Position numbers and translations under genes: made by a program
Source of the DNA: Psilocybe cubensis
Taxonomy: Eukaryota
Length of the DNA: 64,000 bases
Assembly: GCA_017499595.2 (NCBI GenBank)
Contig: CM039000.1
Location: 1,674,001-1,738,000 of the forward strand
Reading direction: 5' to 3'
The notes under the pieces: generated by a model
Told to the model about the DNA's origin: nothing
The model's input: only the letters and a program-made list of their open reading frames with translations
The model's database searches: none
Shown: piece after piece, positions 11,687 through 43,148 of the stretch
Layout of the letters: each line of letters starts with the position of its first letter
How positions within the stretch are numbered: the first letter of the stretch is position 1

Positions 11687-14600
11687 TCAGCCAACTGTCC
11701 TAGGACGCCCTCGACGACGTCCTTGCAACACCCCTTCCACAGCCCCTCCCTCTGTGTTCACCCGTCGTGAGACTCCCTGTTTGCGCGAAATCTTGACCTT
11801 ACCCCTCGTAGCTTCCTCCCGACGAAACTTTGCCACCAATCTGCGTGCATTTTGCATGCCGTACTCTGGAATCCACTCGTTTTCGCTCTCGTCAAACCCA
11901 AGCCACTTCACCAAAAACTCCACAACACCACCCCTCGTCCGCCGCTCCCTCAGTATGCGCTCAATTTCACGCTCTTCGCCGCCGGGCATTAACACAGGCG
12001 GCGGCGGCAACTGTCGTCTGCCCAGAATGGTGTCCGTACGAGCTGGGATCAAGCACGAGACATGGAAAACATCGTGAATGGCCCAACCAGCAGGCAACTC
12101 CAATCGATATGCAGAATCGGAGACTTTCTGTGCAATACGGAAAGGCCCAAAACGACGAAAATCCAATTTATTGTTAGGGCGCGATGAGCGCAGGTCAGAG
12201 CGTTCCAAGAAGACACGATCACCAGGGATGTAGTCGGGTGCCTCATCCACCCAATCATCGTGAAATTTCTTCATCCTCTCCGCGGTGAGTGTCAGAATTG
12301 CCTGCAGCTCGCCCTGCACCCTGTGGATGCGCTCCAGCCTCTCGTCGGCGCGTGGAACTGATTGCGAATTCACAGGATCCACGGAAAACGATGGGTTATA
12401 GCCGTATTCAGCAAAAAATGGGGACATCCCTATTGCTGTATGGTGTCTGTTGTTGTAGGCAAACTCTGCAAAGGGAAGCCACTGCACCCAGTCGTCCTGG
12501 TAGTAGTCGACGTACGCGCGCAGGTAAATTTCCAATTCCTGATTAACCCTCTCTGTCTGACCATCGGTTTGTGGGTGATTAGCGGATGACATCGCGCGCT
12601 TAATACCCAAACGTTCCCACAAACGTTTTGTGTATTTCGCAATAAATTGTGGCCCCATGTCCGACACAATCTTCTTGGGAGTCCCATGCAAAGACCATAC
12701 CCGGTCTATGAAGGTGTCACACATTTCTACTGCACCATCGGTGGTGTGTGCCGGAAGGAAGTGGGCACGCTTTGTTGACTTGTCACAGACCACCTGAACC
12801 GCGTCGTATCCCTGCGATGGTGGCAGCGGCCCAATGTAATCGGTGGAAATGTGCTGCCAAGGACCTGCAGGCACCTCAAGGGGTTGTAGCTTTCCATAGG
12901 GTTTCTGTCGACGGGGCTTGGTGCGTTGGCAAGTATCACATCCATCAACATACCGAGCAACAAATTCTGACATCCTTGGCCAATAGTAGTTCCGTGACAC
13001 CAGCTCCAGCGTGTTTGAGATACCAGGGTGGCCTGCCGGGATCGCATCGTGATACAGCTGCAAAATCCAACGCTTCAATTCCTCGTCATTGGGCACATAC
13101 ACCAGCCCACGAAACCGCACCACGCCATCATCCACCACAAAGTCCTTCAGCCGACGTTGAACAAGGCCGGGAGCGTTAGGTAAATCCCACATGAGATCCA
13201 ACTTGGGGTCCTTACGAGACACTGTACGTATCCTGTCCATAATCTCCTTGTCGGCACGTATAACTTGCCCCACCCTAGCCACCACCTTGGACATACCACA
13301 ACAACGCAGCTCCAGCACCACACCTCGCTTTCCCAACACCGTACCACCACCACCATCATTGGAATCCTGCCCCAGCCTCTCTGCTGGCAAGATCTCCATA
13401 GCAGCATTGTCACGGGCCATCCCGTGGATGTGGTCAGCACGACGAGACAACTCGTCTGGACCTGCACTCAAACGGCCAGGCCGGTGGTGGATCTTGAAGA
13501 CAAAACGGTTCAAAAAAAGGCTCCACCGCGCCTGTCTGCGATTCAAATCACGAGCTGTCATGAAGAACTCCAGGTTGCGATGATCAGAAAATATATCAAT
13601 ACAGAAGGGGTTGCCCTCCAGGTATGGTCGCCAGACTTCAAGAGCACGCACAACAGCTAACAACTCCTTGTCGTGAACATCATAGTTGCGCTCTGCGGGT
13701 TGCATAGCCTTTGAAAAGTAAGCCACGGGGCGCCAATCACCAGCTGCATCCTTCTGCGACAGGATGGCTCCTACAGCAAAATCTGATGCATCCGTCTCAA
13801 CATGGAATGGCGCCTCCATTTCCGGCAGCATCAATACTGGTGCTTGTATAAATGCTTGCTTCAACTGTGCAAACGCCGCTTGCTCCACATCACCCCACCT
13901 CCAAGCCATGTCTTTCCGCTTCAAATTCTCCAGTGGGCGGGTAATGTTGGCATAGTCTGCAATAAAGCGGCGATAGAAGTTACAGAAGCCAAGGAAGCGA
14001 CTAACATGCCGAACATTGCGTGGCACTGGCCAATCCGTTACCCCGCTGACCTTGACTGGGTCCATGCCAACACAACCAGGTGAGATACGAAATCCCAAAT
14101 AATCCACTTCTGTCGTGCGGAACTGACACTTCTCTGGTTTCAGAAACAGATCTGCTTTCCGAAGGCGACGCAAGACTTCCTTAACCTGTTCGTCGTGTTT
14201 TGAAGGGTCTTGAGAGAAGATAATAATGTCGTCCAGGTAGAGTACCACATTAATGTCGACAAGGTCATGGAATAGATCATTAACCATGCGCTGAAAGGCA
14301 GCCGGAGCATTGCGAAGACCAAACTGCATAACCAAAAATTCAAATTGGCCATAACGGGTCCGGAAAGAAGTCTTCCATTCATCACCTTCCCGTATGCGCA
14401 CATTGTAGTAACCCCATCGCATGTCTAAGGTAGTGAAAACCTTTGCTGCCTTGAGACGGTCTAGGAGTTCAGCGGAGAGAGGAATTGGGTATGCATCGGG
14501 CCGCGTGATGGCATTGAGTGCACGAAAATCCACCACAAGACGGAGAGATCCGTCCTTCTTTTTGACAAAGAAAACAGGAGCTCCACACGGGGCCTTGGAG

Positions 14601-15937
14601 GGCCGTATATAACCCTTCTTGAGGTTGTCATCAATGAATTCCTTCAGTGCCCGAAGCTCTGCTGCTGACATCTGGTATAGCTTGCCAACAGGAGGTGGCA
14701 CATTGCCCTCTAACTCAATCGCCAAATCATGGGGCTTATGGGCCGGAAGCCGTTCGGACCGACCCTTATCAAAGACATCCAAAAATTCGTGAAACTCTGC
14801 AGGCACTAAATCTTCAACTGAGCCAGTAGCTTTTGCAGGAGTTGCAGCCTCTGCCAGGCGCTGTGATACTGAATGACTGGCGGCAGCACGAATACCTGGC
14901 CCCTGGCATCCACGGTGTGATTCTCCATCCCAGCACTGTTCCAAGGACACACCCTCAACCACCCCACCTGCCTCTTCTTGTTGCACTGCATGCTCCAAAG
15001 CTTTTGCAATCTCTGCATGTGCAACACGAAGTGCATCTGCCTGTAGGTCACGTGTCATCTGTGTCCAACTTGCACGCGAACATTTTAAAAAGTGCAGAGA
15101 TTCCCTCCGAATGCGAAGTCGGCCCGTAGCGCCACATGTGTTGGTTTGGCGGCACTGGCTATGCGTGTGAGGTGTCTTACGGCCTGGTTTTTGCCGGACT
15201 GGATGTAACAGCTTCAACCTCTCCACATCATCAGCCTCAACTTCCAACCCAGTACGTCTCGCCTCCCGTGCGTGCTGGCGTGCACGGCGGCGTTGCCTTT
15301 CTAGCAGTCGCTTACGCAGCCTTCCAGGTGAAGGTGAAGCAGCTGCAGCAGTTATGGCCTCCGGCAAAGGTAAGCACCTCTGCCTGCAGTATTCCGAAGT
15401 AAAATCCAAGGTAGAGCGGTCAAAATCTACCACCGGATTGTGTCGCCGTAGCCAGTTAATCCCAAATATAAGGTTGTCATCCCCAATATCAGTAACATCG
15501 CATACTAGCAATTCCGAATGTGAGTCGATGAAAACCTTGAGGTGGACTTCATGAGTGATAAGACCCGACTTGATTTCAGAGTTGTCAATTGTGCGCAAAC
15601 GGAGGCTCCTCTTCTTTGGGATTGAAATTAGGCCATGTTGCTCCACAAAACGTGGATTAATGAAACAGCAGCTAGCGCCCGAATCTAGCATTGCCCTAGT
15701 ATCAATAATGGTAGGCACATTGGGTGTCGCGGTTTTGTGTACATGAATAGTAATTGGAATTTCAAAGGAAGAAAACTGTGATCGAGGAGAACGAGCATGA
15801 ATCACAGCTGCACGGCGGGTCCGACAACGACGGCGGCGAGGCACAGTCTGATTTGGACCAGTCAAAACCAATTTATTTGGAGGCGTAAGTACAGAAAACC
15901 TGTTCTGGGTTGCACTTGCAGCGACAAGGCAAGGCAA
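11687..15937 (-). CDS. pol: Retrotransposon Pol (protease, RT, RNase H, integrase, chromodomain), in the -1 frame relative to gag
   Basis: AMLDSGA protease; PVFFVKKKDGSLRLVVDFRALN and YLDD RT; ETDASD RNase H; H..H/CDTC zinc finger, DDE core and GPF integrase; FLVKWLGF..ENEW chromodomain; 1416 codons without a stop. Confidence 0.97.
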   Translation of the reverse strand: MPCLVAASATQNRFSVLTPPNKLVLTGPNQTVPRRRRCRTRRAAVIHARSPRSQFSSFEIPITIHVHKTATPNVPTIIDTRAMLDSGASCCFINPRFVEQHGLISIPKKRSLRLRTIDNSEIKSGLITHEVHLKVFIDSHSELLVCDVTDIGDDNLIFGINWLRRHNPVVDFDRSTLDFTSEYCRQRCLPLPEAITAAAASPSPGRLRKRLLERQRRRARQHAREARRTGLEVEADDVERLKLLHPVRQKPGRKTPHTHSQCRQTNTCGATGRLRIRRESLHFLKCSRASWTQMTRDLQADALRVAHAEIAKALEHAVQQEEAGGVVEGVSLEQCWDGESHRGCQGPGIRAAASHSVSQRLAEAATPAKATGSVEDLVPAEFHEFLDVFDKGRSERLPAHKPHDLAIELEGNVPPPVGKLYQMSAAELRALKEFIDDNLKKGYIRPSKAPCGAPVFFVKKKDGSLRLVVDFRALNAITRPDAYPIPLSAELLDRLKAAKVFTTLDMRWGYYNVRIREGDEWKTSFRTRYGQFEFLVMQFGLRNAPAAFQRMVNDLFHDLVDINVVLYLDDIIIFSQDPSKHDEQVKEVLRRLRKADLFLKPEKCQFRTTEVDYLGFRISPGCVGMDPVKVSGVTDWPVPRNVRHVSRFLGFCNFYRRFIADYANITRPLENLKRKDMAWRWGDVEQAAFAQLKQAFIQAPVLMLPEMEAPFHVETDASDFAVGAILSQKDAAGDWRPVAYFSKAMQPAERNYDVHDKELLAVVRALEVWRPYLEGNPFCIDIFSDHRNLEFFMTARDLNRRQARWSLFLNRFVFKIHHRPGRLSAGPDELSRRADHIHGMARDNAAMEILPAERLGQDSNDGGGGTVLGKRGVVLELRCCGMSKVVARVGQVIRADKEIMDRIRTVSRKDPKLDLMWDLPNAPGLVQRRLKDFVVDDGVVRFRGLVYVPNDEELKRWILQLYHDAIPAGHPGISNTLELVSRNYYWPRMSEFVARYVDGCDTCQRTKPRRQKPYGKLQPLEVPAGPWQHISTDYIGPLPPSQGYDAVQVVCDKSTKRAHFLPAHTTDGAVEMCDTFIDRVWSLHGTPKKIVSDMGPQFIAKYTKRLWERLGIKRAMSSANHPQTDGQTERVNQELEIYLRAYVDYYQDDWVQWLPFAEFAYNNRHHTAIGMSPFFAEYGYNPSFSVDPVNSQSVPRADERLERIHRVQGELQAILTLTAERMKKFHDDWVDEAPDYIPGDRVFLERSDLRSSRPNNKLDFRRFGPFRIAQKVSDSAYRLELPAGWAIHDVFHVSCLIPARTDTILGRRQLPPPPVLMPGGEEREIERILRERRTRGGVVEFLVKWLGFDESENEWIPEYGMQNARRLVAKFRREEATRGKVKISRKQGVSRRVNTEGGAVEGVLQGRRRGRPRTVG

Positions 15938-15952
15938 CCCTACACAAAACCC
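15907..15952 (-). promoter_or_regulatory. Programmed -1 ribosomal frameshift signal (G GGU UUU + stem-loop)
   Basis: In the gag frame CCG GGT TTT GTG TAG contains an X XXY YYZ heptamer (15946-15952), a 5-nt spacer and a hairpin GGGTTGC-CTTGC...GCAAG-T-GCAACCC; a -1 slip enters the open pol frame. Confidence 0.8.
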
Positions 15953-17094
15953 GGCTCGGGGGCTGCAGGTTCCGCTATGGGTGGCTCGGAGGAAACTGTT
16001 CCCAATCCATGTGCTTCAAGCACCTTTGTGACCTCCTCTAAAAGCCCTGCCCGCAGCCGAGCAACAGTAGATGGACAGTTGGCACGAACATGACCACTCT
16101 CTCCACATCGATAGCATTTCCGAGGTAAGTGCCGGGCCGCATCAACATCCATAGCATTAGGATCACGTGGAGCAGGAGGAAGGGATGCCTGAGCAGGGCG
16201 GGGTTGAACAGCATGAGTTCCTGAAGGTAAAGCTGACCGTGCAATAGCAGGTGTAGGCACTGCAGGACTGCGGTGTGGGTGAGGAGCGTGACGTCGTAGT
16301 TCTGCTGCAATGTCTGCATGTCGTGTTTCGCGACGCAAAAGAATTGCCTGGGCTTCCTCTGCCCCCTTGAAGTCTGAGTGAGCCAGAAGCTGCTTGGTTT
16401 GTAAAGACAAACCAGCCCAGAAACACGCATCCACAAATGTCCCAGTCCTATCTGCTACTGGCAACCGAGCAACCAACTCGCGGAACTCAGTAATGTACTG
16501 GGTATCGGATTTCTGGCCCTGCTTGAAGCCCAAGAGGCGCTGTGTAGCATCGCGTGCCGAGTCACGAGAGCAGAATGTGGCCTTGAATGCTGCCAGATAT
16601 GCATCCCAATTTTCACGGAGTTCGGAATTTCCACCCTCTGCGTCGCCGAGTGTAATGACTGCCGACCACGAGTATGCCTGCCCAGATAGATAAGACTGCG
16701 CCCATAGAATACACTGCGCATCATTGGAAAACTCCTCAAAGTGGCGGTTAACCGATATCTGCTGAACCCACTCCTCCGCTTTCTGTTTGCTTGTCCCATC
16801 AAACACCGTGGCAGGATTAACTTTCGGCATCCGAGAGGGACGAGCACGAGCGGCGCTCACGGCATCAAGTCGTTGCTCGGTTGCCGCCAACGCAGCGCGG
16901 AGTTCCTGGTTCTGCACCTCTAGACGAGAAAAACCCTCTGCCGCCTCCTCCAGGCCTCGCTCCAACTCGGACAACCTGGGTGCAAGCAACACCTCCAAGG
17001 CCGTATAAACCTCCTGCGCAATAGGATTGGTGATCGTGGGGGGTGGCGGCGGATGCTCGCCCTCTCCTATCGTAGTGGAATTCCCATCCGGCAT
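15940..17094 (-). CDS. gag: Retrotransposon Gag
   Basis: Coiled-coil N-terminus, capsid-like region (PATVFDG..W..SYLSGQAYSW..FKATF..QGQKSDTQYITEF), PNAMDVD motif and CCHC knuckle CYRCGESGHVRANC; likely ATG at 17094, TAG at 15940. Confidence 0.92.
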   Translation of the reverse strand: MPDGNSTTIGEGEHPPPPPTITNPIAQEVYTALEVLLAPRLSELERGLEEAAEGFSRLEVQNQELRAALAATEQRLDAVSAARARPSRMPKVNPATVFDGTSKQKAEEWVQQISVNRHFEEFSNDAQCILWAQSYLSGQAYSWSAVITLGDAEGGNSELRENWDAYLAAFKATFCSRDSARDATQRLLGFKQGQKSDTQYITEFRELVARLPVADRTGTFVDACFWAGLSLQTKQLLAHSDFKGAEEAQAILLRRETRHADIAAELRRHAPHPHRSPAVPTPAIARSALPSGTHAVQPRPAQASLPPAPRDPNAMDVDAARHLPRKCYRCGESGHVRANCPSTVARLRAGLLEEVTKVLEAHGLGTVSSEPPIAEPAAPEPGFV

Positions 17095-17169
17095 GCTGGA
17101 AAGAAGCCCCAAAGGCGCAAATGCCGAAAAAAAAAATTTCTCCGGAAGGAAACGGGTTGAACGTATAAG

Positions 17170-17180
17170 AGCTTTGACCA
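17170..17180 (-). other. Primer-binding site, self-priming type
   Basis: Minus strand TGGTCAAAGCT starts 2 nt after the 5' LTR and is exactly complementary to AGCTTTGACCA within the LTR (minus strand of 17288-17298). Confidence 0.8.
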
Positions 17181-17182
17181 AG

Positions 17183-17365
17183 TGTAAGGTTCTCACTGTG
17201 GTCTGCAATGCAGCACGAAAGGTAACCTAATAACGAAGTTATATAAAGAATGGAGTATGTACCAGTAGTACATACCTAATAACGAAGTGGTCAAAGCTAA
17301 AGGATATACTGTATCTACGAAGGAGGATAACAGCGCGGGATCACGTGTGTGGTCATATCATGACA
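17183..17365 (-). repeat. 5' LTR (183 bp)
   Basis: Identical copy of 11350-11532, followed by TSD GCGCC at 17366-17370. Confidence 0.97.
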
Positions 17366-18512
17366 GCGCCCCCAGACAATTTAGAAGCAAAACCGACTTT
17401 ATATCATGTTCTATCGCATATATTTCCTCTCGTGTCCATCCTGCCGCTCACTCTCAATACATTAAATAACACTCCCTTTTATCCTGAGTCCATAGATGAA
17501 GATTTGCACAGTGGTCATCTACAATTACCGAAAGGGACTGTTCTTGTCCTTGCCGAAGGTGCAGTCACTGAAGGAGACATTTTCAATAAAGGCATGTATC
17601 TTTTTTTATTGAAAACCGAATATGGAGTAATATATTTCTTACTCAGGTGTGATGAACATACGCGCAACTCAAGACATGATGTCGGAACAAAATCTGCAAT
17701 ACGTCTTTCCATTCAGTAGCTTCCAATTTGAAACAGAAGTAAACTTTCTCGTTACAACAGAGGGGAGAAAAAGTACATTTTTCAAGGTAATCTTTGAATT
17801 TATCGGAACGTCTTGAATCGAAACATGAATTCCCGCTTTCAGACGGATATTGTTGTTCCTCTTCGGCCTATGGTTTCCGAAGCCAATGATATCAAACATA
17901 GGCTTTACAATGCAGCAGACACTATACGACTTCCGCCTGCTGATAAACTCTTACAATTCCGCCAATTGGCAGGAGGTTCAATGATTGGAAATGTCGCTGT
18001 TGCCGACGTGTTAGGAAAGGCACGTCTTTCTCTGAATAGAACTGAAGACATACATTGTTGAGCGCAGACTTTAGCATGTCGAAGAAGATTTCATTCGAGA
18101 ACGGTCCTCCGAGGGAAACAATGGAGCGAAGACAAATAAAACCACCTTTTCCCCCGATGATCTCATATCGCGAATGCTAATTGCAAGGTAAGTTTCTAAT
18201 ATTGAATAGACTTGCGTTAAGACATTTGTGCTTTAGATTAATTGCTTTGTCATTGCACCAAACTGAAGTCAATCTAGAAAGTTGGGAAAGCGCAAAGACT
18301 CTCGAAGCGCAGACAAGAAGTAGAGTTTAAATCAGCAGGTGTACGCAAAAGAGTCAAGTACAATAAAATTGGCAGGCATTTAGTAAAGTACAAAATATGT
18401 TTTGATAAGAATAATATGTGCATCATATAAAGAATAGAGCTGAGTACTGAGTTAGCGTCACGTTGAAGACAAAAGGCAGGACAACTTTAGTGCAGAGTAT
18501 ATGTGTGGAATA

Positions 18513-24518: not shown

Positions 24519-25911
24519 CTACAGATCATCGGTGTTGCAATTCTCACAATACCATTTCCCCTCTGGAACTTCAGTTAAACCAACACAACCAAGGTGAAAC
24601 TACATTATATATATCTTGAGATAAAGATTAGCTCTTTGGCGAATGAATCGCACTCACCCATTCACCCTCACAGGATTCACCATCACAAGCAATCATCTAA
24701 AATTGTGAAGTAGTAACGAAGATGCATGACACAAAATACGTGACATACCTCTCCAAAAGAGACCCGATTGCAATAACAATATACCTCTTCGTTCGGATTT
24801 GTTGCGGGTAATGTTATTGTAAGCGACGTAGAATTCTTCCCTCCCTGCCCTACATCGATACCGTTATCCATATATGAACTTTGACCATAGTCATCATATC
24901 CAGCGTTGGTATAAATTCCTGCATCATCATCTTCATAATCCTCTGAGAGATTAGAAACTTTGCGAGACTTTCGAGGGTATTTCGGAGCGTCCACTTCAGG
25001 AAGGTGCAAAGTGACTCCGTTAGACGAACGAGATGCTTCAGCAGTTAATGTAGCTTCTTGTTCCTTGATAGCTTGATCGAGAAGCCGTATATGTCTTTCC
25101 ACCTAAAAGTGAATTAGGCCAGAAAGATTTAAATTGCGATTTTTGGTTTATTATCATACCGATTCGTGGTTAGCTTGAGCAATGTTTACTTTCTCTTGCG
25201 AGGCTCGAAGCAGTTCTTCCGCCATTGAAGCGACATGAGTAATAAGATCTCTGGTGGTTGTCATTTTCTTGTTTTTATCAGGCCCAACAGATCTCCTAAT
25301 TTCAAGAACAGATCCGCTTCGTGTTGGTGTTTGTGACGGAGAGGAAGTAGACTTCCCATTGTTCTCCGGCTTCTTCGTAGGACCTGTAGAGAAACCATTC
25401 AGGGATAACGATGTGTTTGTGGACGGTGTATTTATCACAAGTTGTTCTTCATGCGTTGAGACATTAGTAGATCCATTTTCTGATGCAGTTTCCGTGGTAT
25501 CATCCACGATTCCTGCCATGGCTCGGCGTTGTTTAATATATTTCTGTAATGCAGGGCGTATACTAGCAGCACATGCTATAGTTCGTTTGTTCATGGATTG
25601 TAAAAACTGTAGCAACAGCAAGATCTAACCTAGTGTGTGCTCGTCGAGCTGACGCATGAGAGAAAGTTGACGGTGCAACGTTAGCGGTAATTGTTCGATG
25701 GCTGCAAATACATGTAGGTCAAATGGACCCAAAGCATGCTATAAAGATCCATACCTTCATAATGGGCCTCCCTGATAGCATCCCAGACCTCTTGTTCTTT
25801 TTCTGCTCTCTGTTGTTCGGTTGAATTGGTGATTTCTGGAATAGGGTCCGTTGAAACATCTATATCTTCTTCTGGGAAAGCAGCATCACGTCTCCTTTTT
25901 CGAGGCGACAT
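24519..25911 (-). CDS. ING-family PHD-finger chromatin reader (Yng2/Pho23-like)
   Basis: IEQLPLTLHRQLSLMRQLD ING N-domain, EKVNIAQ...ERHIRLLD, C-terminal PHD YCYCNRVSFGE/MIACD..C..EW/FHLGCVGL..P.GKWYC..C. Confidence 0.9.
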
Positions 25912-26199
25912 CGGATTTTCGGATTAACATACAAAGTCCCAGAGAGACGAATTTGGGAGTAGAGTCAAAGCTGCTTGTCAGTGAAGTCTTCGTTGAACGC
26001 GTACTAATTGAAGAAAGGATCACATGCTACTTCCGTCAATGGTCATTGAACCCAATGATCACACATCTTCACACGGACCTCATCATCATCATGGTTATCG
26101 TTGGAAGCCCCTTGAAATATTACCGTGCTGGCCTCAAGGCCGCTGTTTTCCTGATATATTGCAGCATTCCCTTTCAGTGATCTCTATCTGTGTTTTCTG

Positions 26200-28515
26200 A
26201 TGTTGAAAGTTCTCGACGTCTCTAACGGAGCGTTGAATATCGCTGCAGTCTGCGGCGTACCTTTCATCGGTGCTGCAGCTACAGTCGTAGATGGAATAGT
26301 CCGTACTTGTGAGGATGTAAAAGTTCACAAGGTATGACTATATCGATTCATTCTTCCACTTCCTACTACTAACATTTCTCTCAGAGAAGGACAAGGCAAC
26401 TGTCAACTAGATGCTTACAAGTTCTCGGCATGCTAAGTGACCAAGCTTCGAAGTTGGAGGGCTCTGAGTTACAGAATATTGTGGACCAACTTGTCCCGTG
26501 AGTATTTCAAGCCGGATCAGATTGTTGGTGTTCATAAACACCTCTTCTTAAGAATACTAGAGAGAATTCAGAAAAGGACTTTACGTTGGTCGAGCTATAA
26601 CTCTGTGATGACTTTCAGTGATTACCGCAAGAAAATATGCTCTTTACACCCCAGTTCTTACGTCCTCGTTTGGCAGTTAAGAATGGCGACATAAAAGAAG
26701 GAATAGAATTATGTGATTCTGAACTTGATACCGCAATGACATTGTTTTCGGTATGTGCAAACCCCCCTCCTTCGCGATATGATTTGGACCCACGAGATTC
26801 TTCTTCAGATCAAGTGAGTGCGCAGTTAGTAAGGTTTGTGATTTGTCTCTGATGTTCCATAGCTCTACTATCACATTGCACTCGTCACAACGCGAAATGC
26901 ACGATATCATGAGGAGTCAAACAGAAGAAATGCGTGAAATGCGTGAACTTTTACATCGCGCTCTCAGTTCCAACGAGTTGCAAAATGCCAGTGTCGATAT
27001 TGCTGAGCAATTGATGGCTGGTGGCCAAAATGTTAGCGCCTCGTTTTTATTTGCGTTGCGTATCTGAACAACCAGTCTTGCAGGATTTGCGGCAACTAAG
27101 AAAAGTCCAAGAAAGACAGTTTGGAGATGACATAGTTCGCTCTACGTCCCCGCTCCCTCAAGTTTCGGATAGTCAACTTTACTTAGAACTTCAACGAGAT
27201 CTTATTACTCTCCATCGCGAAACTGGGATTCCCCCGACTATCAAAATTCTAGACGGGGAGGTTAAACGGTTGGACACAATACCCATTGCAGGTGGGACCT
27301 ATAGCGATGTTTGGCTAGGCCTGTGGCTTGGGGAGAAAAAGGTGAAGAAATTGCTGAAGGTTGAAATGCCGCTTATATACATCATAAGGTCGCTTTAAAG
27401 GCTCTCAGAAATATTAGGGCAGCCGACCCAAAAGCTAAGAAGGTCAGGAAATGAAACATGGCACGGAAAGATCGTTTTAACCTTACTGGTCGTTGTAGCG
27501 TTTTGAAAACGAGATTAACATGTGGGCTGGCTTGAAGAATGATCACATACTCCCATTTTATGGAATTGTTACTGACATGGGTCAGCATATTCATATGGTG
27601 AATGAATCTGTCTTTGAACATCTCCCGCACACTTACGCTGCTTTGAACCCTTAGGTGTCACCCTGGCAAGAGAATGGAAACGTACTTGAGTATGGAATTC
27701 TTTCGTTTACTATATCCAACTAAATCATCTTCCATTTACAGATACGTCAAAACTCACGGAGATAGTAACACCCGCATTCGTCTGGTTAGTATATCCGGTA
27801 GCGTTCCTTCAAACTGCACTCTGATTACCTGCCAGATACGCGGTGCCGCTCAAGGGCTAGCATATCTACACTCACGCAAAATCATCCACGGAAACAGTGA
27901 GTGAAATCGGTATTACTCTTTTGGAAAGATAACGAGCCTTAATGTTACTCCCAGTGAAATGTGTGCGTCTCTGTCTAACTTTCGATTCACTTCCTTCTAA
28001 CTGCACACTAAACTCAAACAGGCTAACATCCTGGTGACTGGAGAGGTACACATTTGTATCGTCGATAACCTACCAAGCTAACGAAGCTATTGCTCGGACG
28101 TCAGGGCGAAGCATGCATTTGTGACTTCGGGATGTCGAAAGTTATCGAGGAAGTCACGGAGAAGAGCGCTTCTGCCACGTTGACTGCTGGTGGGAATGCG
28201 CGCTGGATGGCTCCTGAACTGATCGAAGGCAGCACACCAACCGTAGAGGCGGATACGTATTCGTACGCCATGGCTATACTTGAATTGGTGACCGGGAAGC
28301 ACCCATTTGCAGACTGTAAAACGACAGCTGCGGTTATATATGAGATTGTAGTACACAAAAGGATGCCTTCCCGGCCTGAAGCCTTGCAGTATTGGTTGTC
28401 AGATGGTCTATGGGAGCTTTTATGTGCATGTTGGCAAACAGATGCTGCATCACGGCCCTCAATGGCCCAGGTGACCTCATATATACAGGCAATGGAGGAA
28501 ATGGCCTTTGCTTAA
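26200..28515 (+). CDS. MLKL-like protein: N-terminal helical (4HB/MLKL_NTD-like) domain + TKL-type kinase domain, probable pseudokinase; start approximate
   Basis: Spliced N-terminus GVPFIGAAATVVDGIVRTCEDVKVHK/RRTRQLSTRCLQVL.../ILERIQKRTLRW...DIKEGIELCDSELDTAMTLFS; kinase AGGTYSDVW, VALK, FENE, HGNMKCANIL, DFG, RWMAPE, DTYSYAM; about 13 introns including an 8-nt exon. Confidence 0.75.
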
Positions 28516-28767: not shown

Positions 28768-29633
28768 TTAATCATGACGAGAACCAACTGCTTTGCCAGT
28801 TCCTCCCTCTTCTTCAAGCCTTGCATTACTATCAACGATCAACTGTGGGGACAGTTTGGGATACACTGATGCTGAGTAGACAGGGTATTGATGGTTTAGA
28901 TCTGCCCCGTCATGAAGACCGACAGTTGGGTATTGTGGATGAAATTGTGATGGAACACCTGCCAGTTGATAAAGGCCATGAGTTGCATAGGGCTGATGTG
29001 GAGATGTTTGAGCCAAAAAGGTATGCGTAGGGATTGTGGGGCCCATGATGTAGTGAGGAGTAGAGTACATAGAGGGCACATTGCTGGGTTTGGAAGACGC
29101 CGGAGGATAAGAGGTATAAATGCCCGGAAAGCCAGGGATTTGAACATAGGAACCAGTGTTCGGTGACATTCCAGGCGGAATGCTGGTGTGTGAAGCACCG
29201 ATGATTTCAGGGGGCAGGTCATTCAGGTTAATATTCCTCCCTGTCAGACAACACATATACTCAGAACGAGAGGCAAAAGAACATTAATAGGCACAGGCAT
29301 AGACGCACCCCTTCCATCGCGCTTCTTGTAAGGCCCTCTCTTCACGCCCTTCTTGCGCTCTTTCCTTTGGGAATCGACGCATTCATCGGAGCAACCGTAC
29401 TTTATACAGCGAAGGCAAGGGCGTGCGTCGTCGCACTTCTTGCACGCCTTTTGGCAATGAGTACAAGCGTTCTTGACCTGCCTACGTTTGGGACGCAGCT
29501 GCTGGGCGGGCAGGAGAGCGCTTGGGAAGGAGTAAACATGCATGGTTACAGCAGAGATTGGTTGGGAAGAAGTCAAAGGTAGTGGTTCAAGAGAATCTTC
29601 GCCATCGATGCTTTTGTCGACGGCGGACGGCAT
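28768..29633 (-). CDS. Zn(II)2Cys6 binuclear-cluster transcription factor
   Basis: KRRQVKNACTHCQKACKKCDDARPCLRCIKYGCSDECVDSQRKERKKGVKRGPYKKR followed, after one intron, by a Pro/Tyr-rich region. Confidence 0.9.
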
Positions 29634-29925
29634 GGGACAAGAAGCAGGGTGAGCCTGAACTTTGCGTTTCTCGGCTTAGTGGGCATCGCTGACATAAACT
29701 TGCCCTTCTTTGTCCAGCCGATCTGCTGTTGCACCCTTGCTATTTTTTAGAGAGTGCCCTGTTCATCTGAACTGAGTTCGATCCCCAACGCCTCGCTGTC
29801 GACTCGTTACAGCCTACGACGAGCACATCGGGACCTGTCTTCACCATCACGCCCTGAAAACTCCGCGCATATACCAACGCGCGTCTGTCACGCCCGGCTC
29901 TTTTTATTAAGTAACCTCGAGTAGC

Positions 29926-33088: not shown

Positions 33089-36000
33089 ATGTCTGCGCCC
33101 CCATCTCCCCGAATCGGACATTCACCTAAACGTAATTCCTCAACCAAGAAAAGAGATCGACCTGAGGCCCTCGAAATTCCGGGCGAGGATAGGAAGGCTG
33201 TATCAGACGGCGAAATCCGTTATGAACGCGAATATCTTGTTCCTGAGGACAAGAATACAGAAGAGGTAATATATAATTCTGCTTTCAGTGAAGGCACTTC
33301 GTTGATCGTGGCACAGCGCCAGCAATTCACCTTGAATGTCACCATACCCGACGGTACACCGATGGAACGAGAACAAACCCTTTCACGCCCCACGTCTTCA
33401 ACTTCCTCACTTGATCCATACTATTTTGGAATTCAGTCAGAATCCGAATCACCTTCAGCACCCCTACCGTCAGCCAACACGTATCTTACTGCCACTACGC
33501 CCGATCATCAGCGACCTATTGAGCCTACCACTCCAGCGCGCAATCCAGCTGCAATCGATAGACGTGGCCTCGTTGGTGTTGGAGAATTAGCTACCCCTCG
33601 CTGGGCTCGAGAGGGAAGCACTGATCGTGATGATACTGTTCTGGATGCTGAAGCTGAAGGGTATGATGTCGTGCCGAACGATGGCGAGGAAGAGGATCAC
33701 CCGGATAGTCCTTGGACCATTGAAGCCATTGATGGCGAAAGCTCAGAAAGAGAGGAGGTACGTGAATATGTTAGACCCTTTCTTTGCATCGATATTAAAC
33801 CTTTCCAAGGTTTCCAATTTGCAACCACATTTGCAACCACCACCGCGGACACTTCGCACACGACCTTCCATTGCAGATGAGAGTGGAGGAGAAGAAATTT
33901 TATATCCACGCAACATCCATTCGAGTGTACAGGCAAAGGAAGACATAGGCTCGACTCTTGCTGACGATACACCTAAATTCTCTCATCCTCCTGAGTATTC
34001 CTCTCCTGATGTCAATACGGTGGGATTGTCGCCACCCAGCGCCTTTAATCCAAGCGCACGGAAAACCAGGAAGCGGACATCGGGGGAATTTGAATTGGAT
34101 CAAACCGGCACATTGACTACCAAGTCACCTATATCAAGCTCGTCAACCAGAGATAAGCCTAAGGATGACAGATCGGCTCGAAAGCATCGTAGCCTTAATA
34201 TCTCCACAGTCTCGCCTAGAGAATCCAAAACCAAAGAACGACGCAGAGATAGCAGCGGTTTAACAATAACCAGCAGCATCAAGACTGCGCCGTTACCAGG
34301 GAAAACACCAGAACGACATATCAGGCAAAGTTCTGCGAGCTCAACTACTTCCAATGCTCCCGAAAGCCATCATTCGCGACGCGTCCACACTACTGACTTT
34401 TCTCATCTTCCTCCATCTCCCTCCTCTTCGTCAATTCAACAATTCCTACGCACGACAGCAGGGGCTACCGCATCGCAGCCCTCATCTTTGCATCGTTCTT
34501 CAAAGGACAATCTTCAGGCGCATTCATCTCCTAACGTAGCACATGCACTTCTTCGTGGTAATCATGAAGGTTGGAATCTGGATGATGAGGCAACTGCGGA
34601 AGCTTTTCGTAAATTGGATGGCATGGTTGGGAAGGGTGCTCGTGCTCGTGCCAGTGTTGGTAGCTTCGGGAGGCCCTCCAGTTCGAGTCGTCCAGGAACC
34701 CCCGCCAGTAAATCCGGCAGTCAATGGGAAGGTATCAGCACATCCGATTCTGGAAAGTCTAAGCGTGGCAGTGGTAACGTCAAGGATGGTGCATCATCAA
34801 AAGACAAAGGTGAATTCAGCTTGCAGGACCTTGTGGAGCCGTCTGTTGCGGCGGTTAGCAGCGACGAACAACCTCAGAGTCAACCACCTCTTGATAAAAC
34901 ACCCAAAAAAGCTAATGCCAGCGCAAGGTTGAGCTTTACACCAAAACGCGGTTCTACTTCCTCCACTACGTATGCGAGTACCCCAAGTTCGCGGGATTCG
35001 GCGTCCATGTCGGCAGCCACCAGTGTTACTTCTGTATCAGCCGCTTCAGGACGTCATTCTTCCAATAAAGGCCGAAGAAATAGTGCAAGCAGCGATGTTT
35101 CAAGTATTCACTCAACTGACGCTTCACATTCAGCTCTCAATGGGGATTCAACTGAAGTAAAGGTCGTTCCTCCTGTTCCTCCTCTTCCCAAAGATTTGTC
35201 GACCTATCGTTCTCCTCCATCCACATCTTCGGGCCTCACTTTCCCAGTCTTACCTACAGATGATAAAATCTACACAAGCGAGATTCAGTTACAACCACAT
35301 CGAAACGCATCCCTTGAAGCTCCCCCATCTTATACCAGTCCCGTCGTTTCTCCTGCTGCATCCTCGTCTACCCGGCGAGAAAGCCAGCACTATTCTTCGA
35401 CTAACGAAAGTTCTCCTGCTGTTCCCAAGACTCCTTCAAAGAAATGGAGCTTCAGTGCTCTTAATCTCAAGCTCTCTGGTTCTCCGTCAAACCAAAAGAC
35501 CTCGTCTTTCCCACTGAGTCCTCGCTCGGTTACATTCGGACAGCAAGGTCGCAAATCTTTATCAAAGGAACAGCCAACCTCTTCGTCGTCTGCAAGTGCA
35601 CCTTGGTCTCCGAATCACCCCGATGCTATGACGTCTGCAGGTTCACTGACGTCTCTTTCATCTGTCGGATCTGTGAGAACACCTGCTCAGATGCCTTCCC
35701 TTTCCAAGACTCCCGACCGCGCGCCTCAGACCAGTCGTCCAGGTACTGGATCAAGTACGCATACTACTTCAGGTCTTACTGCTCCTCCACCTGGTCCTCT
35801 TAGTCCATCCTCTTCCATCCGCCGTGGTCAAAACAAGCGTTTGACTCCATCTTCTATACCATTTTTCCGACGATCCTCATCTCAATCTATGCAAGTTCCT
35901 CCTCCAACTGGGCCGAATCCATCGTCTTCCCCTCCCGTTCCTGGCCTGTTGTCCGCAAATCAGTCCTACATGAAGCAGAGTACCTCTCCTTCTCAGGATT

Positions 36001-39000
36001 ACAGTTCTATTTCTACCTCGACGCCAGGCGCTGCTCATAAGAAATCCTCTATGCTTAGTTTGGGTCTGCCTTCACTGTTAAAGTCGAGTTCTCGTAGAAG
36101 CTTGCATTCAGATGCCAAGGATGCTGCCAAGGAACAACAAAGAGTAAAGGATGCTGCTCGTGAATCGGAGAAGGAAAGAATTAAGCTTGAAAAGGAACGT
36201 CAAAAAAAGGAAGACAAAGATAGAAGTGAAAGTAGGATATCAGTCATTATGAATAGGAAAAGGGGCAAGGTATGTCTGAAAAATTCATCCCCAGATGAAC
36301 GGGCTATTTACATTCTAAATTTTTAGACTCTATCTTCAGCTGATCCAAGGAAGCCCAAATCACCAGTCAATCTACCTCCGATGCAAATCGCTGCTTTGGA
36401 GCCTGTCACCGCGCAAAGAGTTGCGAAGCTCAAGTCCAATGCCATTCCTGTCTCTTCTACCTCCAGTCGAACCTCTACCTCTTCTTCATCTTCCCGATTA
36501 ACAAATCAAACTGTCAGTTCCATGCAAAAGCAGTCGGACACTTCTCTTCGCAGTCGCAATCAGTTACCGACCATTGCTGGCTCTCCGTCAGTAGGAACGA
36601 CAGGAACCAGCAGTTCTCAAACGCTGAAGGAGGGTCGAGAGCCTCCATCGACTTTAATGAATTCTACATCTGGCCTCCCCAAAGAAACACCCACCAAGAT
36701 CCCTCGCATTTCTAGTCGGACATCCGCAGTGGCCTCCCCGCCTTTGAAGAATTCTACTTCCACTCCGGCGGCCAGGAGGGCAAGCAATCTTGCTGTCGCA
36801 TCCTCGAACAACGCTTCTCCTGTCAGTTTGTCAACGAATGAATTTGGTGTTATCGAGAATGAGGATGGGGCAACACCCAAAGTGCGGCAGAGCACTGTGC
36901 GTGCTTCTCCATCTGCTTCCAACGCCTCGATATCTCGCGTTCCTCGTCAGTCCACTATCAGTGGTTCAATCAATGCACCGCAGTCATCTGCTACCACGCC
37001 GCGCAAGCCTAATAGAGACTCGATGTCTTTCATTGGACTTCGCAAATCTTCGACGAATTCAGTCGCCTCGCTTTCTGGAACAGGTAATGTAAGCGAGACG
37101 TCCACGACCCATCATCGATTTTCTGTTCTTTCCCCTTCAAAGGGACTAAAGCTGTTGGCACCCAAAAGTTCCACCAGGGCATCAACATCAGGGCTTAATC
37201 AAAGCATTCATCAGCCGTCGGCCTCGCCTTCTTCGTCTCGGCAATCTCTTTCAACCCCATCTCCAGCTCCCAGTTCGCCAGATGAAGAGGAACTTATTGG
37301 CGACGAAGAAATGCTACACTACATAAAGCGACAACATGCTAAAAAGTTGGCAGCGGGTGCTAGTCAGGAAGAACTGGACGAAATGCTTAAATTCCCTGAA
37401 CCAGTTCCTCCTGGTACTCCATCTTCACCAGCCAGTAAGTTATCACCGTCTCTTCTATGGGTATGTATCCTAACAATAAATAGGTATTCTGAAAAGTTCG
37501 CAGGCACAATCTCTTTCAGAATTTGAGCGGAAGGAAATTTTGGATTACCCCTCGGTCTATTGCATTGGCGCTAATAGCAGGAAGAAGCTGGCGGTTCTGG
37601 ACAACCCCACCAATAATTATGGCTACGACGATGAACGAGGAGATTACCTCGTTGTAAATCATGACCATCTTGCATACCGTTACGAAATTATAGATACCCT
37701 CGGAAAAGGTTCCTTTGGTCAGGTTTTGCATTGCAGGGACCACTGCACGGGTGAATCAATGGCTGTCAAGATCATTCGGAACAAAAAACGATTCCATCAT
37801 CAAGCATTGGTTGAGATTAAGATTCTTGACAACCTTCGCAAATGGGTTAGTCATTTCATTCACGAATTTTAAACAGACACTCATTTATTTCTTAGGATGC
37901 GGACGAGAAACATCATGTCATCAAGATGACGGAACATTTTTACTTCCGAAATCACCTGTGCATTGCCATGGAATTGCTTAGTATCAATTTGTATGAGTTG
38001 ATCAAGGCAAATGGCTTCGTAGGGTTCACTACTGCTCTTATCCGTCGATTCACAAGTCAGATGTTACTTTCTCTATCTTTAATGCGACATCATCGCATTG
38101 TTCATTGCGATCTTAAACCAGAGGTAATTTCATCTCATCATGTTTCAATGTTTCACTCGACGAATCTTTCTCTAGAACGTCCTCCTTCGTCATCCAGCCA
38201 AGAGTGGGATCAAAGTGATTGATTTTGGGAGTAGTTGTTTCGAGCATGAAAAAAGTAAGTTTACTTATAATTATATTCTCTTTCCAGTATACTCATTCTA
38301 CTGTTAGTATATACATACATCCAAAGTCGCTTCTATCGCTCACCTGAAGTCATCCTTGGAATGAATTATCATATGGCCATCGATATGTGGAGTTTGGGAT
38401 GCATACTAGCTGAGCTCTATACGGGATTTCCTATATTCCCCGGGGAGAACGAGCAGGAGCAATTGGCATGCATCATGGAAGTGCTCGGGGTTCCAGATAA
38501 GGAATTTATTAACCGTAGTTCACGCCGGAAACTTTTTTTCGGTGAGGATCTGATGTTTGACACCTGTTCATAATGCTAACCAACGATAGATACCAATGGA
38601 GCCCCTCGAATTGTCCAAAATTCAAAAGGTCGGAAGCGTAAGCCAGGAACGAAAACATTGGCATCAGTTTTAAGGTGCAATGACGAAGAATTCGTTGATT
38701 TTGTTGCCAAATGCCTCATTTGGGACCCGGAGAGGCGAATGAAACCTCAGACTGCTATGCGCCACCCCTTCATTCTAGCAGGACGGAAACCAAAACCTGT
38801 AACGACTACAACCAGACCTTCTGCGTCTTCCTCTAATTTAAGTACCCGGGGAAAATCCACAGTTACGGAAACCCCAAAGAAGTCTCTCATCAGTGCCCCA
38901 ACCCCTCTTACCGCTCGAACAACCAGAACAACCACTACTAATGGCGGACCAACAACTCCAAGTAATTCTCATTCTCAGGCTGTAGGATCGAGTTCGTTGC

Positions 39001-39158
39001 AGACGTCAAGGTCATATCGTACTTCTCAGTCTCACAGTCTATCTGGCTTCCATTCTAGTCGGACTCTGACTGGTTACGCAGTAAGTTTTCTATGAGAGTT
39101 ATATGTTTCTGTCATACTTACTCGAGGGAACACGTAGTCCAGCTCGACAAACAAGTAA
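33089..39158 (+). CDS. DYRK-family (class 2, Pom1-like) dual-specificity kinase with a very long Ser/Pro-rich N-terminus
   Basis: DH box [56 protein letters not shown] activation loop. Confidence 0.93.

Positions 39159-41207: not shown

Positions 41208-43148
<1,941 letters not shown>

What the first reader, a model, noticed from the sequence alone, without database searches (positions are those of the whole stretch)
26200..28515. MLKL-like 4HB-pseudokinase: candidate fungal necroptosis-type effector
Seen: the spliced N-terminus is a run of amphipathic helices (VPFIGAAATVVDGIVRTCEDVKVHK...QLSTRCLQVL...ILERIQKRTLRW...DIKEGIELCDSELDTAMTLF), then a helical brace-like linker, then a TKL kinase with a degenerate Gly loop (AGGTYS), intact VALK and DFG, and HGN in place of HxD. 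Known: animal MLKL is 4HB + brace + pseudokinase lacking the catalytic Asp, and 4HB/HeLo-like domains act in fungal and plant cell death. Inference: this is an MLKL-architecture death or immune switch that is invisible in the unspliced ORF track. The 4HB assignment is by eye.
Basis: partly seen in the sequence, partly recalled or inferred. Interest (0 to 1): 0.75.

Follow-up and report, generated by a model that had tools for sequence, protein, structure and literature searches.

The report
MLKL-like pseudokinase gene in Psilocybe
This is a real, expressed mushroom gene whose protein has the same layout as the animal cell-death executioner MLKL (a helical membrane-type head, a helical linker and a kinase lacking its catalytic aspartate); the layout is already known in fungi and its function is untested.

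Summary
Window 26200..28515 (+) holds a 15-exon, 516-aa gene of Psilocybe cubensis. All 14 GT-AG introns (47-59 nt), a 5-nt micro-exon and an 8-nt micro-exon are confirmed by spliced contigs of two public runs. The public protein model (P0001) misses the 5-nt micro-exon and so lacks the whole N-domain.

- **N-domain:** it is homologous to the MLKL four-helix bundle. Pfam MLKL_N matches 14 of 15 ortholog N-domains. A PDB profile search gives MLKL chains as the top 7 hits (E 2e-4). An AF2 model (pLDDT 88) aligns to mouse and human MLKL at Z 11.6.
- **Kinase:** it carries H-G-N in place of H-R-D. This is kept in 52 of 57 aligned rows and marks one well-supported lineage across Agaricomycetes. VALK, the αC Glu, DFG and APE are intact.
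- **Against a dedicated death or immune role:** the nearest paralogs are HGD kinases fused to RasGEF. No NLR lies nearby. The kinase domain is not specifically MLKL-like, and it is better conserved than the head.

Fungal MLKL homologs and HELL-kinase fusions are already in print. I rate this a new member of a known kind with untested function. My best guess is a pseudokinase-gated membrane-targeting switch.

The parts
26112..26199 (+). 5' untranslated region (minimum extent)
   Evidence: Spliced contig of X1 starts at 26112 and that of X2 at 26161. There is no ATG between 26112 and 26200 and an in-frame stop at 26152-54.
26200..26331 (+). Exon 1, aa 1-44: hydrophobic Gly/Ala-rich N-terminal segment and first bundle helix
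   Evidence: Residues 12-30 are the most hydrophobic 19-residue window of the whole protein (Kyte-Doolittle mean 1.96). A15, G20 and P22 are invariant in 15 orthologs.
26385..26750 (+). Exons 2-4 (26385-26497, 26553-26617, 26677-26750), aa 45-128: remaining helices of the MLKL_N-type four-helix bundle
   Evidence: Joints. Pfam MLKL_N and PDB MLKL profile matches of orthologs cover residues 32-128. Model helices are 45-64, 73-96, 100-105 and 107 onward.
26809..26813 (+). 5-nt micro-exon (exon 5)
   Evidence: It is needed to keep the frame. Its 5 letters stand between joints 26750 and 26863 in X1 and X2 (table 5c). The public model P0001 starts inside intron 4 and reads through to this exon, which costs it the N-domain.
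26863..27031 (+). Exon 6, aa 131-186: brace-like helices
   Evidence: Helices 107-163, 165-176 and 181-197 in the ortholog model. The profile alignment to mouse MLKL 4btf reaches chain residue 169.
27084..27341 (+). Exon 7, aa 187-272: linker and start of the kinase N-lobe, with the Gly loop AGGTYS at 27288-27305
   Evidence: Pfam PK_Tyr_Ser-Thr match on P0001.
27389..27784 (+). Exons 8-11 (27389-27442, 27499-27597, 27655-27689, 27742-27784): VALK (27389-27400), αC Glu, hinge
27836..27896 (+). Exon 12: catalytic loop start, H-G-N at 27887-27895 (Asn in place of the catalytic Asp)
   Evidence: The contigs of X1 and X2 cover it without variants.
27955..27962 (+). 8-nt micro-exon (exon 13), which completes the catalytic loop
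   Evidence: Its 8 letters stand between joints 27896 and 28022 in X2 and appear as a loose end in X1. Orthologs have the same spacing.
28022..28045 (+). Exon 14: ...ANILV... end of the catalytic loop (the second catalytic-loop Asn is kept)
28105..28515 (+). Exon 15: DFG (28123-28131), Ser/Thr-rich activation loop to APE (to 28218), C-lobe, stop at 28513-15
   Evidence: Activation-loop identity to 39 orthologs averages 83%.

Best explanation
The gene encodes a fungal protein with MLKL architecture, belonging to an old lineage conserved across Agaricomycetes.

**Shown.**
- It is transcribed and spliced as modelled.
- Its first ~135 residues are a hydrophobic N-terminal segment followed by a four-helix bundle homologous to the MLKL N-terminal domain.
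- Helical brace-like segments follow the bundle.
- The C-terminal half is a TKL-type kinase domain. Its catalytic Asp has been Asn since the origin of the lineage, while the ATP-binding motifs (VALK, αC Glu, DFG) and a Ser/Thr-rich activation loop stay highly conserved.

**Inferred.**
- The kinase-like domain acts as a nucleotide-binding or phospho-accepting switch rather than as an efficient enzyme.
- In the resting state it restrains the N-terminal bundle through the brace.
- On an upstream signal the bundle and its hydrophobic N-terminal helix are released. They then oligomerise on and disturb a membrane. The likely signal is phosphorylation of the conserved activation loop by an active kinase, possibly an HGD paralog.
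- Whether the outcome is cell death or a sub-lethal ion or stress signal is open.
For: - **Gene model and expression:**
- **Pfam:** MLKL_N matches 13 of 14 full-length orthologs at E<=0.1 and 14 of 15 N-domains at E<=1. The best E is 1.9e-7, and the Galerina N-domain scores 27.5 bits against a cut-off of 27. The window's N-domain is 65% identical to that ortholog.
- **PDB profile search:** the top 7 of 13 hits are all MLKL; six human MLKL sequences score E 1.9e-4 to 1e-3 and mouse 4btf scores 0.013.
- **Structure:** the AF2 model has pLDDT 88.1 and pTM 0.75, with MLKL-like helix order. Foldseek's top 10 are all MLKL N-domains or plant NRG1/Rx CC domains; 2msv has probability 1.00 and TM 0.54/0.57.
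- **VIA-align:** 4btf scores Z 11.6 (rmsd 2.1, 96 aa) and 6ux8 scores Z 11.6 (rmsd 2.5, 112 aa). AtMLKL3 6ka4 scores Z 9.5.
- **N-terminus:** residues 12-30 are the most hydrophobic stretch of the protein (1.96).
- **HGN:** present in 52 of 57 aligned rows. It marks one side of a branch with SH-aLRT 99, holding 54 HGN rows and 1 HGD row.
- **Activation loop:** 83% conserved.
- **Literature:** HGN is a catalytic-loop state of listed animal pseudokinases (PMC2754085, tables read as passages).
Against: - No functional data of any kind exist.
- Foldseek E-values are not significant (best 0.066).
- Three designed helical bundles outrank MLKL in VIA-align (Z 13.8-12.1), so the fold alone is weak evidence.
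- Most Pfam scores lie below the curated cut-off.
- The kinase domain is not specifically related to MLKL's. The 60 best solved relatives shown are EGFR, Lck, Src, Fyn, Lyn, EphA7 and MLT.
- DFG, VALK and APE are intact, so residual catalysis is possible.
- The kinase domain (65% identity) is better conserved than the bundle (41%) and the brace (38%). That fits a core signalling role.
- The closest paralogs carry the same head on active-looking HGD kinases fused to RasGEF (28 of 62 scanned) or RhoGAP (1), and none of the 62 has an NLR domain.
- The neighbours are housekeeping genes.
Confidence: 0.5

Rival explanations
1. It is a signalling scaffold or weakly active kinase of a small-GTPase-type pathway. 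The helical head is a regulatory or dimerisation module, perhaps lipid-binding, with no lethal membrane activity. The protein acts with, or as a regulator of, the HGD-kinase-RasGEF paralogs.
For: - Of 62 N-domain relatives scanned, 28 are kinase-RasGEF fusions and 1 is a RhoGAP fusion, all with HGD where the motif was found.
- Both types occur in the same species. Hohenbuehelia grisea has P0044 and P0077 on one contig. Crepidotus variabilis has P0024 and P0074.
- The kinase domain and the activation loop are the most conserved parts.
- The context is housekeeping genes.
- The ATP-binding motifs are intact.
Against: - The HGN lineage has a longer and more hydrophobic N-terminus than the RasGEF paralogs: 1.9-2.0 in close orthologs (1.3-1.4 in three more distant HGN members) against 0.8-1.2 in the three RasGEF/RhoGAP paralogs tested. 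That feature is typical of membrane-inserting HeLo/MLKL heads.
- The catalytic Asp has been lost and stayed lost across the lineage.
- The head is homologous to a domain whose known members act on membranes.
Confidence: 0.35
2. It is an ordinary TKL kinase with an unrelated coiled-coil or helical N-terminus, and the resemblance to MLKL is chance similarity among helical bundles.
For: - Helical bundles give middling structural scores to many folds, and designed bundles outrank MLKL.
- The first, shallow model found no MLKL match.
- Pfam scores are mostly below the cut-off.
Against: Three independent sequence-based results point to the same family and no other: Pfam MLKL_N in 14 of 15 N-domains, MLKL as all top 7 PDB profile hits, and MLKL_N hits in paralogs up to 40.9 bits. 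Foldseek's top 10 are all from the MLKL/CC superfamily.
Confidence: 0.07
3. It is an allorecognition or NLR-controlled immune effector of the HET-S/HELLP type, triggered by amyloid templating from a neighbouring NLR.
For: The head belongs to the same superfamily as HeLo/HELL. Basidiomycete MLKL-like heads are common on NLRs (PMC9815663, passages read).
Against: - No NLR or STAND gene was found in the 64-kb window; the only nSTAND3 Pfam hit is a sub-threshold secondary match on the AAA ATPase ORF at 41725-42132.
- The C-terminus is a kinase, so there is no amyloid motif tail.
- There are no Pfam HeLo, Helo_like_N, SesA or Goodbye hits at E<=1 in 15 N-domains.
- Conserved orthologs, about one per species, run across Agaricomycetes. 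That is unlike polymorphic het genes.
Confidence: 0.05

Closest known systems
Animal MLKL (necroptosis executioner; PDB 4btf, 2msv, 6ux8)
   Same: - The order of parts is the same: N-terminal four-helix bundle, helical brace, C-terminal kinase-like domain without the catalytic Asp.
- The head is detectably homologous and superposes (Z 11.6).
- A basic cluster at the helix 1/2 turn aligns with MLKL's (alignment printed).
   Different: - It has an extra hydrophobic ~20-residue N-terminal segment.
- The catalytic loop is HGN, not HGK, and DFG is kept rather than GFE. The MLKL motifs are taken from the table row NP_689862.1 in PMC2754085; that this accession is MLKL is my recollection.
- The kinase domain is not MLKL's closest relative.
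- No RIPK3/RHIM partner is known in fungi.
Plant MLKLs (AtMLKL1-3; PDB 6ka4)
   Same: They are non-animal MLKL-architecture proteins conserved across a large clade. The head aligns at Z 9.5 over 123 residues.
   Different: The plant proteins have an extra C-terminal region and a shown role in immunity (abstract of bioRxiv 10.1101/681015 seen). No function is known here.
Basidiomycete MLKL-like (BaMLKL) heads and fungal HeLo/HELL domains (HET-S, HELLP)
   Same: They belong to the same superfamily. The extra N-terminal helix reported for BaMLKL (PMC9815663, passages) matches residues 8-16 of the model. The hydrophobic N-terminus is as described for HeLo/HELL (PMC10197012, passages).
   Different: Those heads sit on NLRs or on amyloid-tailed effectors, whereas this one is fused to a kinase-like domain. 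Pfam HeLo and Helo_like_N do not match. The review PMC12881547 (figure legend) already notes that some HELL domains are fused to kinase or pseudokinase domains.
Agaricomycete head-HGD kinase-RasGEF proteins (e.g. P0074, P0077, P0087)
   Same: They are the nearest paralogs. The head, the brace and the TKL kinase are all shared.
   Different: They keep the catalytic Asp, carry RasGEF_N and RasGEF (one carries RhoGAP) and have a shorter, less hydrophobic N-terminus.
Asn-type pseudokinases (HGN or HRN catalytic loops in animal proteins)
   Same: Asp is replaced by Asn in the catalytic loop while the ATP-site motifs are retained (tables of PMC2754085). From memory, these include JAK JH2 domains and HER3, which bind ATP and have at most weak activity.
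   Different: They are unrelated in the rest of the protein.

Membership tests
MLKL-architecture proteins (animal/plant MLKL) | N-terminal four-helix bundle of the MLKL_N type | tested here: met
   Tested on orthologs, because the spliced window protein cannot be handed to the tools; it is 65% identical to P0002 over the domain. Pfam MLKL_N matches 14 of 15 N-domains, with P0002 at 27.5 bits against a cut-off of 27. The top 7 PDB profile hits are all MLKL: six human sequences at E 1.9e-4 to 1e-3 and mouse 4btf at 0.013. Model to 4btf and 6ux8: Z 11.6.
MLKL-architecture proteins (animal/plant MLKL) | Helical brace between bundle and kinase-like domain | tested here: inconclusive
   The region is predicted helical, and the profile alignment to 4btf runs to chain residue 169 at E 0.013. 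Its packing on the kinase domain was not modelled.
MLKL-architecture proteins (animal/plant MLKL) | Kinase-like domain lacking the catalytic Asp | tested here: met
   HGN at 27887-95 in the genome and in spliced contigs. It is kept in 52 of 57 aligned rows.
Animal MLKL orthologs | MLKL-type degenerate motifs (HGK, GFE) and a kinase domain closest to MLKL's | tested here: not met
   DFG and VALK are intact. The 60 best solved relatives shown for the kinase domain are Tyr kinases and MLT, and none is MLKL.
Animal MLKL orthologs | Activation by RIPK3 through RHIM signalling; a cytotoxic N-domain | not testable with these tools
   This needs experiments.
Fungal HeLo/HELL effectors (HET-S, HELLP) | Match to Pfam HeLo or Helo_like_N | tested here: not met
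   None of 15 N-domains matches at E<=1.
Fungal HeLo/HELL effectors (HET-S, HELLP) | Hydrophobic N-terminal helix | tested here: met
   Residues 12-30 give a Kyte-Doolittle 19-residue mean of 1.96, the maximum of the protein.
Fungal HeLo/HELL effectors (HET-S, HELLP) | C-terminal amyloid motif and an adjacent NLR | tested here: not met
   The C-terminus is the kinase domain. The ORFs of the 64-kb window give no NLR gene; the only STAND-type Pfam row is a sub-threshold nSTAND3 hit secondary to AAA on the ORF at 41725-42132.
TKL / 'TKL-ccin' kinases | Kinase domain of the Tyr/TKL type, named so in annotated orthologs | tested here: met
   PK_Tyr_Ser-Thr is the best Pfam family (E 5e-44 on P0001). 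Many orthologs are named 'TKL/TKL-ccin protein kinase' by NCBI. That is a source name, not a test.

The most novel reading that the evidence does not exclude
The HGN lineage is the agaric counterpart of MLKL: a near single-copy executioner found across Agaricomycetes. Its head, with its own membrane-inserting N-terminal helix, is released when an active HGD paralog phosphorylates the conserved Ser/Thr-rich activation loop. The RasGEF-fused kinases that share the same head are candidate activators. That would tie Ras-type signalling directly to regulated membrane permeabilisation and hyphal compartment death in mushrooms.
Probability: 0.12. Interest if true: 0.8.

Novelty: new member of a known kind. 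Interest (0 to 1): 0.5.

Why it matters
Whether fungi have a true MLKL-type death switch, rather than only the isolated HeLo/HELL head, is an open question in comparative cell-death biology. This gene offers a concrete candidate. It is conserved, expressed and present in about one copy per species among the hits. It has all three MLKL parts plus a hydrophobic N-terminal helix, and it has orthologs in tractable agarics such as Coprinopsis relatives.

Two other points have practical value:
- A 5-nt micro-exon made the public gene model lose the whole head domain, so domain censuses based on such models will under-count this architecture.
- The same head sits on active kinases fused to RasGEF. 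That warns against reading every MLKL_N-like head as a death domain.

Tried and rejected
- **Exon-by-exon Pfam scan of the window's N-terminal exons:** no hits, because the pieces are too short.
- **Whole genome of the window:** none is held, so copy number in P. cubensis could not be counted.
- **First AF2 model from a 15-row alignment** (pLDDT 78, pTM 0.51): it fused bundle helices 1 and 2.
  - Foldseek found nothing relevant (best E 0.63, BAR domains).
  - VIA-align put the ZAR1 CC first at Z 10.0, without standing out.
  - I replaced it with the 84-row model.
- **Word-index search with the N-domain of P0002:** it returned only 11 orthologs and no full-length Psilocybe protein.
- **Run search:** no listed holder is on record as RNA. 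X1 and X2 are 'RNA?' by the tool's guess. I count them as transcript evidence only because they lack the introns while X3 keeps them.
There is no verdict, and I did not try it any other way.
- **Earlier-findings index:** nothing found.
- **Literature searches for a description of this lineage:**
  - MLKL + fungi + pseudokinase + basidiomycete.
  - TKL-ccin: 5 papers, expression lists only by title and abstract.
  - HeLo-like + kinase domain + MLKL + Agaricomycetes.
  - pseudokinases + tree of life + TKL + fungi.
  - RasGEF + protein kinase domain + Agaricomycetes: 0 papers.
  - fungal MLKL / MLKL-like / HELL domain.
  - None describes the HGN clade or the RasGEF fusions. Supplements were not opened.
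- **NLR-linked reading:** rejected for lack of any NLR domain in 62 relatives and in the window.
Full report
**1. What is in the sequence**

The + strand from 26200 to 28515 does not give one long ORF. It gives a chain of short open pieces in changing frames. Joining them at GT..AG sites gives a 15-exon coding sequence of 1551 nt, or 516 aa. All 14 introns are 47-59 nt long.

Two exons are tiny. One has 5 nt (26809-26813), between the last bundle exon and the brace exon. The other has 8 nt (27955-27962), inside the catalytic loop.

- AGGTYS at 27288-27305
- VALK at 27389-27400
- HGN at 27887-27895
- DFG at 28123-28131

The ATG at 26200 follows an in-frame stop at 26152-54.

**2. Independent support for the gene model**

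The last exon is 100% identical to a UniRef protein of Psilocybe cubensis (P0001, 398 aa). It is 58-77% identical to most of the ~520-aa proteins it hits across Agaricomycetes, which NCBI names 'TKL/TKL-ccin protein kinase'. These orthologs have the same residues across both micro-exon junctions.

I laid contigs of three public runs on the locus.
- X1 and X2 come from one study, and the tool guesses they are RNA. X2 skips all 14 introns at the predicted borders, and X1 skips the first 11 before its contig ends.
- Both carry the 5 letters of the first micro-exon between 26750 and 26863. X2 carries the 8 letters of the second between 27896 and 28022, and X1 shows them as a loose end.
- X3 is collinear with the genome and has no joints.
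- The only differences are a synonymous T>C at 26726 and an intronic A>C at 28011. The Asn codon of HGN is therefore in the processed transcript.

This is one study, and these are contigs. They say nothing about expression level.

P0001 begins at an ATG inside intron 4 and reads through to the 5-nt micro-exon. The public model therefore lacks residues 1-128. No full-length Psilocybe protein turned up in the protein searches.

**3. The N-terminal domain**

The spliced protein cannot be handed to the external tools, so I tested orthologs. The window's residues 1-193 are 65% identical to Galerina P0002.

*Sequence evidence.*
- Pfam MLKL_N (PF22215) is the only recurrent family on this region.
- It matches 13 of 14 full-length orthologs at E<=0.1, with one (P0020, 31.0 bits) above the cut-off of 27.
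- It matches 14 of 15 isolated N-domains at E<=1. The best E is 1.9e-7, and P0002 scores 27.5 bits.
- No HeLo, Helo_like_N, SesA or Goodbye match appeared.
- A profile of the 15 N-domains searched against all PDB sequences returned 13 hits. The top 7 are all MLKL. Six human MLKL sequences score E 1.9e-4 to 1e-3, with profile positions 32-109 aligned to residues 15-96 in the best hit. Mouse 4btf scores E 0.013, with positions 33-170 aligned to 18-169.

*Structural evidence.*
- The first AF2 model used a 15-row alignment and was mediocre (pLDDT 78, pTM 0.51). It found nothing convincing.
- With 84 rows, the model of P0002 1-164 reached pLDDT 88.1 and pTM 0.75. Its helices are 8-16, 22-40, 45-64, 73-96, 100-105 and 107-163. 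That is the MLKL helix order, preceded by an extra low-confidence N-terminal helix.
- Foldseek's top 10 are all MLKL N-domains (2msv, 6zvo, 6ux8, 6zz1, 6d74) or plant CC domains (NRG1.1, Rx). None reaches E 1e-3; the best is 2msv at E 0.066, probability 1.00 and TM 0.54/0.57.
- VIA-align against 48,161 chains ranks three designed bundles first (Z 13.8-12.1).
- Mouse MLKL 4btf follows at Z 11.6 (rmsd 2.1, 96 aa), and human MLKL 6ux8 at Z 11.6 (rmsd 2.5, 112 aa).
- Further down are NRG1.1 (10.2), MLA13 and Rx (9.6) and AtMLKL3 (9.5).

The fold evidence alone would be weak for a helical bundle. Together with three sequence-profile results that all point to one family, I take the 4HB assignment as established.

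*The N-terminal segment.* The first ~30 residues are Gly/Ala-rich and hydrophobic. Residues 12-30 are the most hydrophobic 19-residue window of the whole protein (1.96). A15, G20 and P22 are invariant among 15 orthologs. An extra N-terminal helix in basidiomycete MLKL-like heads, and a membrane-active N-terminal helix in HeLo/HELL, are described in PMC9815663 and PMC10197012 (passages read).

**4. The kinase-like domain**

Pfam gives PK_Tyr_Ser-Thr at E 5e-44.

*The catalytic loop.* In a 57-row alignment (56 database proteins plus my model), H-G-N stands in 52 rows. The exceptions are P0039 and P0056 (HGD), P0054 (HQN), P0030 (gap) and P0051 (misaligned). VALK, the αC Glu, DFG and APE are near-invariant. 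The Gly loop keeps its middle Gly; the first Gly is Ala and the third is Ser.

*Conservation by region,* as identity to 39 full-length orthologs:

| Region | Mean identity |
|---|---|
| N-segment (1-31) | 46% |
| Four-helix bundle (32-130) | 41% |
| Brace (131-235) | 38% |
| Kinase domain (236-516) | 65% |
| Activation loop (Ser/Thr-rich) | 83% |

*Nearest solved relatives.* The closest solved kinases by sequence are EGFR, Lck, Src, Fyn, Lyn, EphA7 and MLT. MLKL is not among the 60 shown. So the kinase half is not specifically MLKL-derived. The shared architecture may be ancient or convergent.

*HGN elsewhere.* HGN is a recorded catalytic-loop state of animal non-catalytic kinase homologs (tables of PMC2754085). 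That these include JAK JH2 domains is my recollection.

**5. The wider family**

An exhaustive profile search with the head found 610 cluster representatives at E<=1e-3 and 158 at E<=1e-10. I scanned 62 of the best 150 against Pfam.
- 28 are head-TKL kinase-RasGEF fusions. Two of these show no kinase match, and one has RasGEF_N only.
- 1 carries RhoGAP.
- The ~500-aa ones are head plus kinase.
- A few look like merged gene models (MFS, thioredoxin/PITH, aldehyde dehydrogenase).
- None has NACHT, NB-ARC or another NLR domain.

Nine of the ten representatives I looked up carry a source name, and all nine are from Agaricomycetes; the tenth (P0103) has none. The protein atlas adds Mucoromycota clusters with MLKL_N and kinase as look-alikes (a lead only).

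All RasGEF fusions with a recognisable catalytic loop have HGD.

I built a quick maximum-likelihood tree of 87 rows.
- Rows were chosen by a regex for the catalytic loop lying at residues 300-450. They were cut 160 residues past the motif.
- Proteins without a match, proteins with N-terminal extensions and ids from P0205 on were left out.
- A branch with SH-aLRT 99 separates 54 HGN rows plus P0039 (HGD) from 32 rows. Those 32 hold the 19 long RasGEF/RhoGAP HGD proteins, short HGD proteins and a few other degenerate forms.
- One further HGN row (P0124) lies among the HGD rows.

The root is not known. Even so, the Asn state is old and has been kept in orders from Trechisporales and Polyporales to Agaricales (names).

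The three RasGEF/RhoGAP paralogs tested have shorter, less hydrophobic N-termini (0.8-1.2). The two closest HGN orthologs score 1.9-2.0, and three more distant HGN members score 1.3-1.4.

**6. Surroundings**

ORFs of at least 110 aa across the 64 kb give housekeeping families: Piwi, a class II tRNA synthetase, arrestin, RNA cyclase, CDC50, RecQ helicase, Nuf2, a branched-chain ketoacid dehydrogenase kinase, proteasome Rpt, the V-ATPase A subunit, galactose-1-P uridylyltransferase, a Sel1-repeat protein and PGK.

There is no NLR gene (the only nSTAND3 row is a sub-threshold secondary hit on the proteasome-type AAA ATPase ORF), no second head-kinase gene and no tandem paralog. The flanking genes on the minus strand (24686-25923 and 28771-29675) have no Pfam match.

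**7. Interpretation**

The anatomy is that of MLKL with a HeLo-like hydrophobic N-terminus. I judge it most likely (0.5) that the kinase-like domain is a switch that gates a membrane-directed head.

The main rival (0.35) is a non-lethal signalling or scaffold role linked to the RasGEF paralogs. Three things support it: the context, the conservation pattern and the intact ATP-site motifs.

No experiment bears on either reading. The attempt to model head-kinase docking was not carried out by the tool.

**8. Novelty**

Fungal MLKL homologs are mentioned in PMC11476962 (passages). Basidiomycete MLKL-like heads are described in PMC9815663. [quoted passage not shown] Pfam and NCBI already tag several orthologs.

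My six searches found no description of three things:
- the conserved HGN lineage;
- its hydrophobic N-terminus;
- the RasGEF-fused sister group.

I therefore rate the finding a new member of a known kind, with moderate interest as a testable candidate.

Noticed in passing
window 11350-17373: A Ty3/Gypsy-type retrotransposon lies on the minus strand. It has long open gag (15943-17226) and pol (11690-16015) frames. It is flanked by 191-nt direct repeats that are 98% identical (11350-11540 and 17183-17373). It lies between two pieces matching the MCM-binding protein family (10484-10882 at profile positions 14-111, and 17234-17716 at profile positions 348-420). It appears to be inserted in that gene.
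   Followed up: partly
window 26780-26813 and protein P0001: The public P. cubensis protein model starts at an ATG inside intron 4 because the 5-nt micro-exon was not recognised. The model therefore lacks the whole MLKL_N-like head. Orthologs P0003, P0007, P0026 and P0043 show local oddities at exon borders that look like similar prediction errors.
   Followed up: partly
proteins P0073-P0193 (relatives, not in the window): There is a family of ~1000-1200-aa Agaricomycete proteins with the same helical head. Each has an HGD TKL kinase and C-terminal RasGEF_N plus RasGEF; one (P0103) has RhoGAP instead. I found no paper describing them.
   Followed up: partly
window 33591-39092 (+): Very long open frames (911 and 399 aa) have no Pfam match. 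A protein-kinase N-lobe match follows at 37480-37869. This is probably one large kinase gene with a long non-globular N-terminus, and it shows no head-domain match.
   Followed up: no
window 28700 onward: The spliced contig of run X2 continues 1323 nt past 28700, into the convergent minus-strand gene (28771-29675). The two genes' 3' ends probably overlap or abut, although a contig across two genes shows no single transcript.
   Followed up: no
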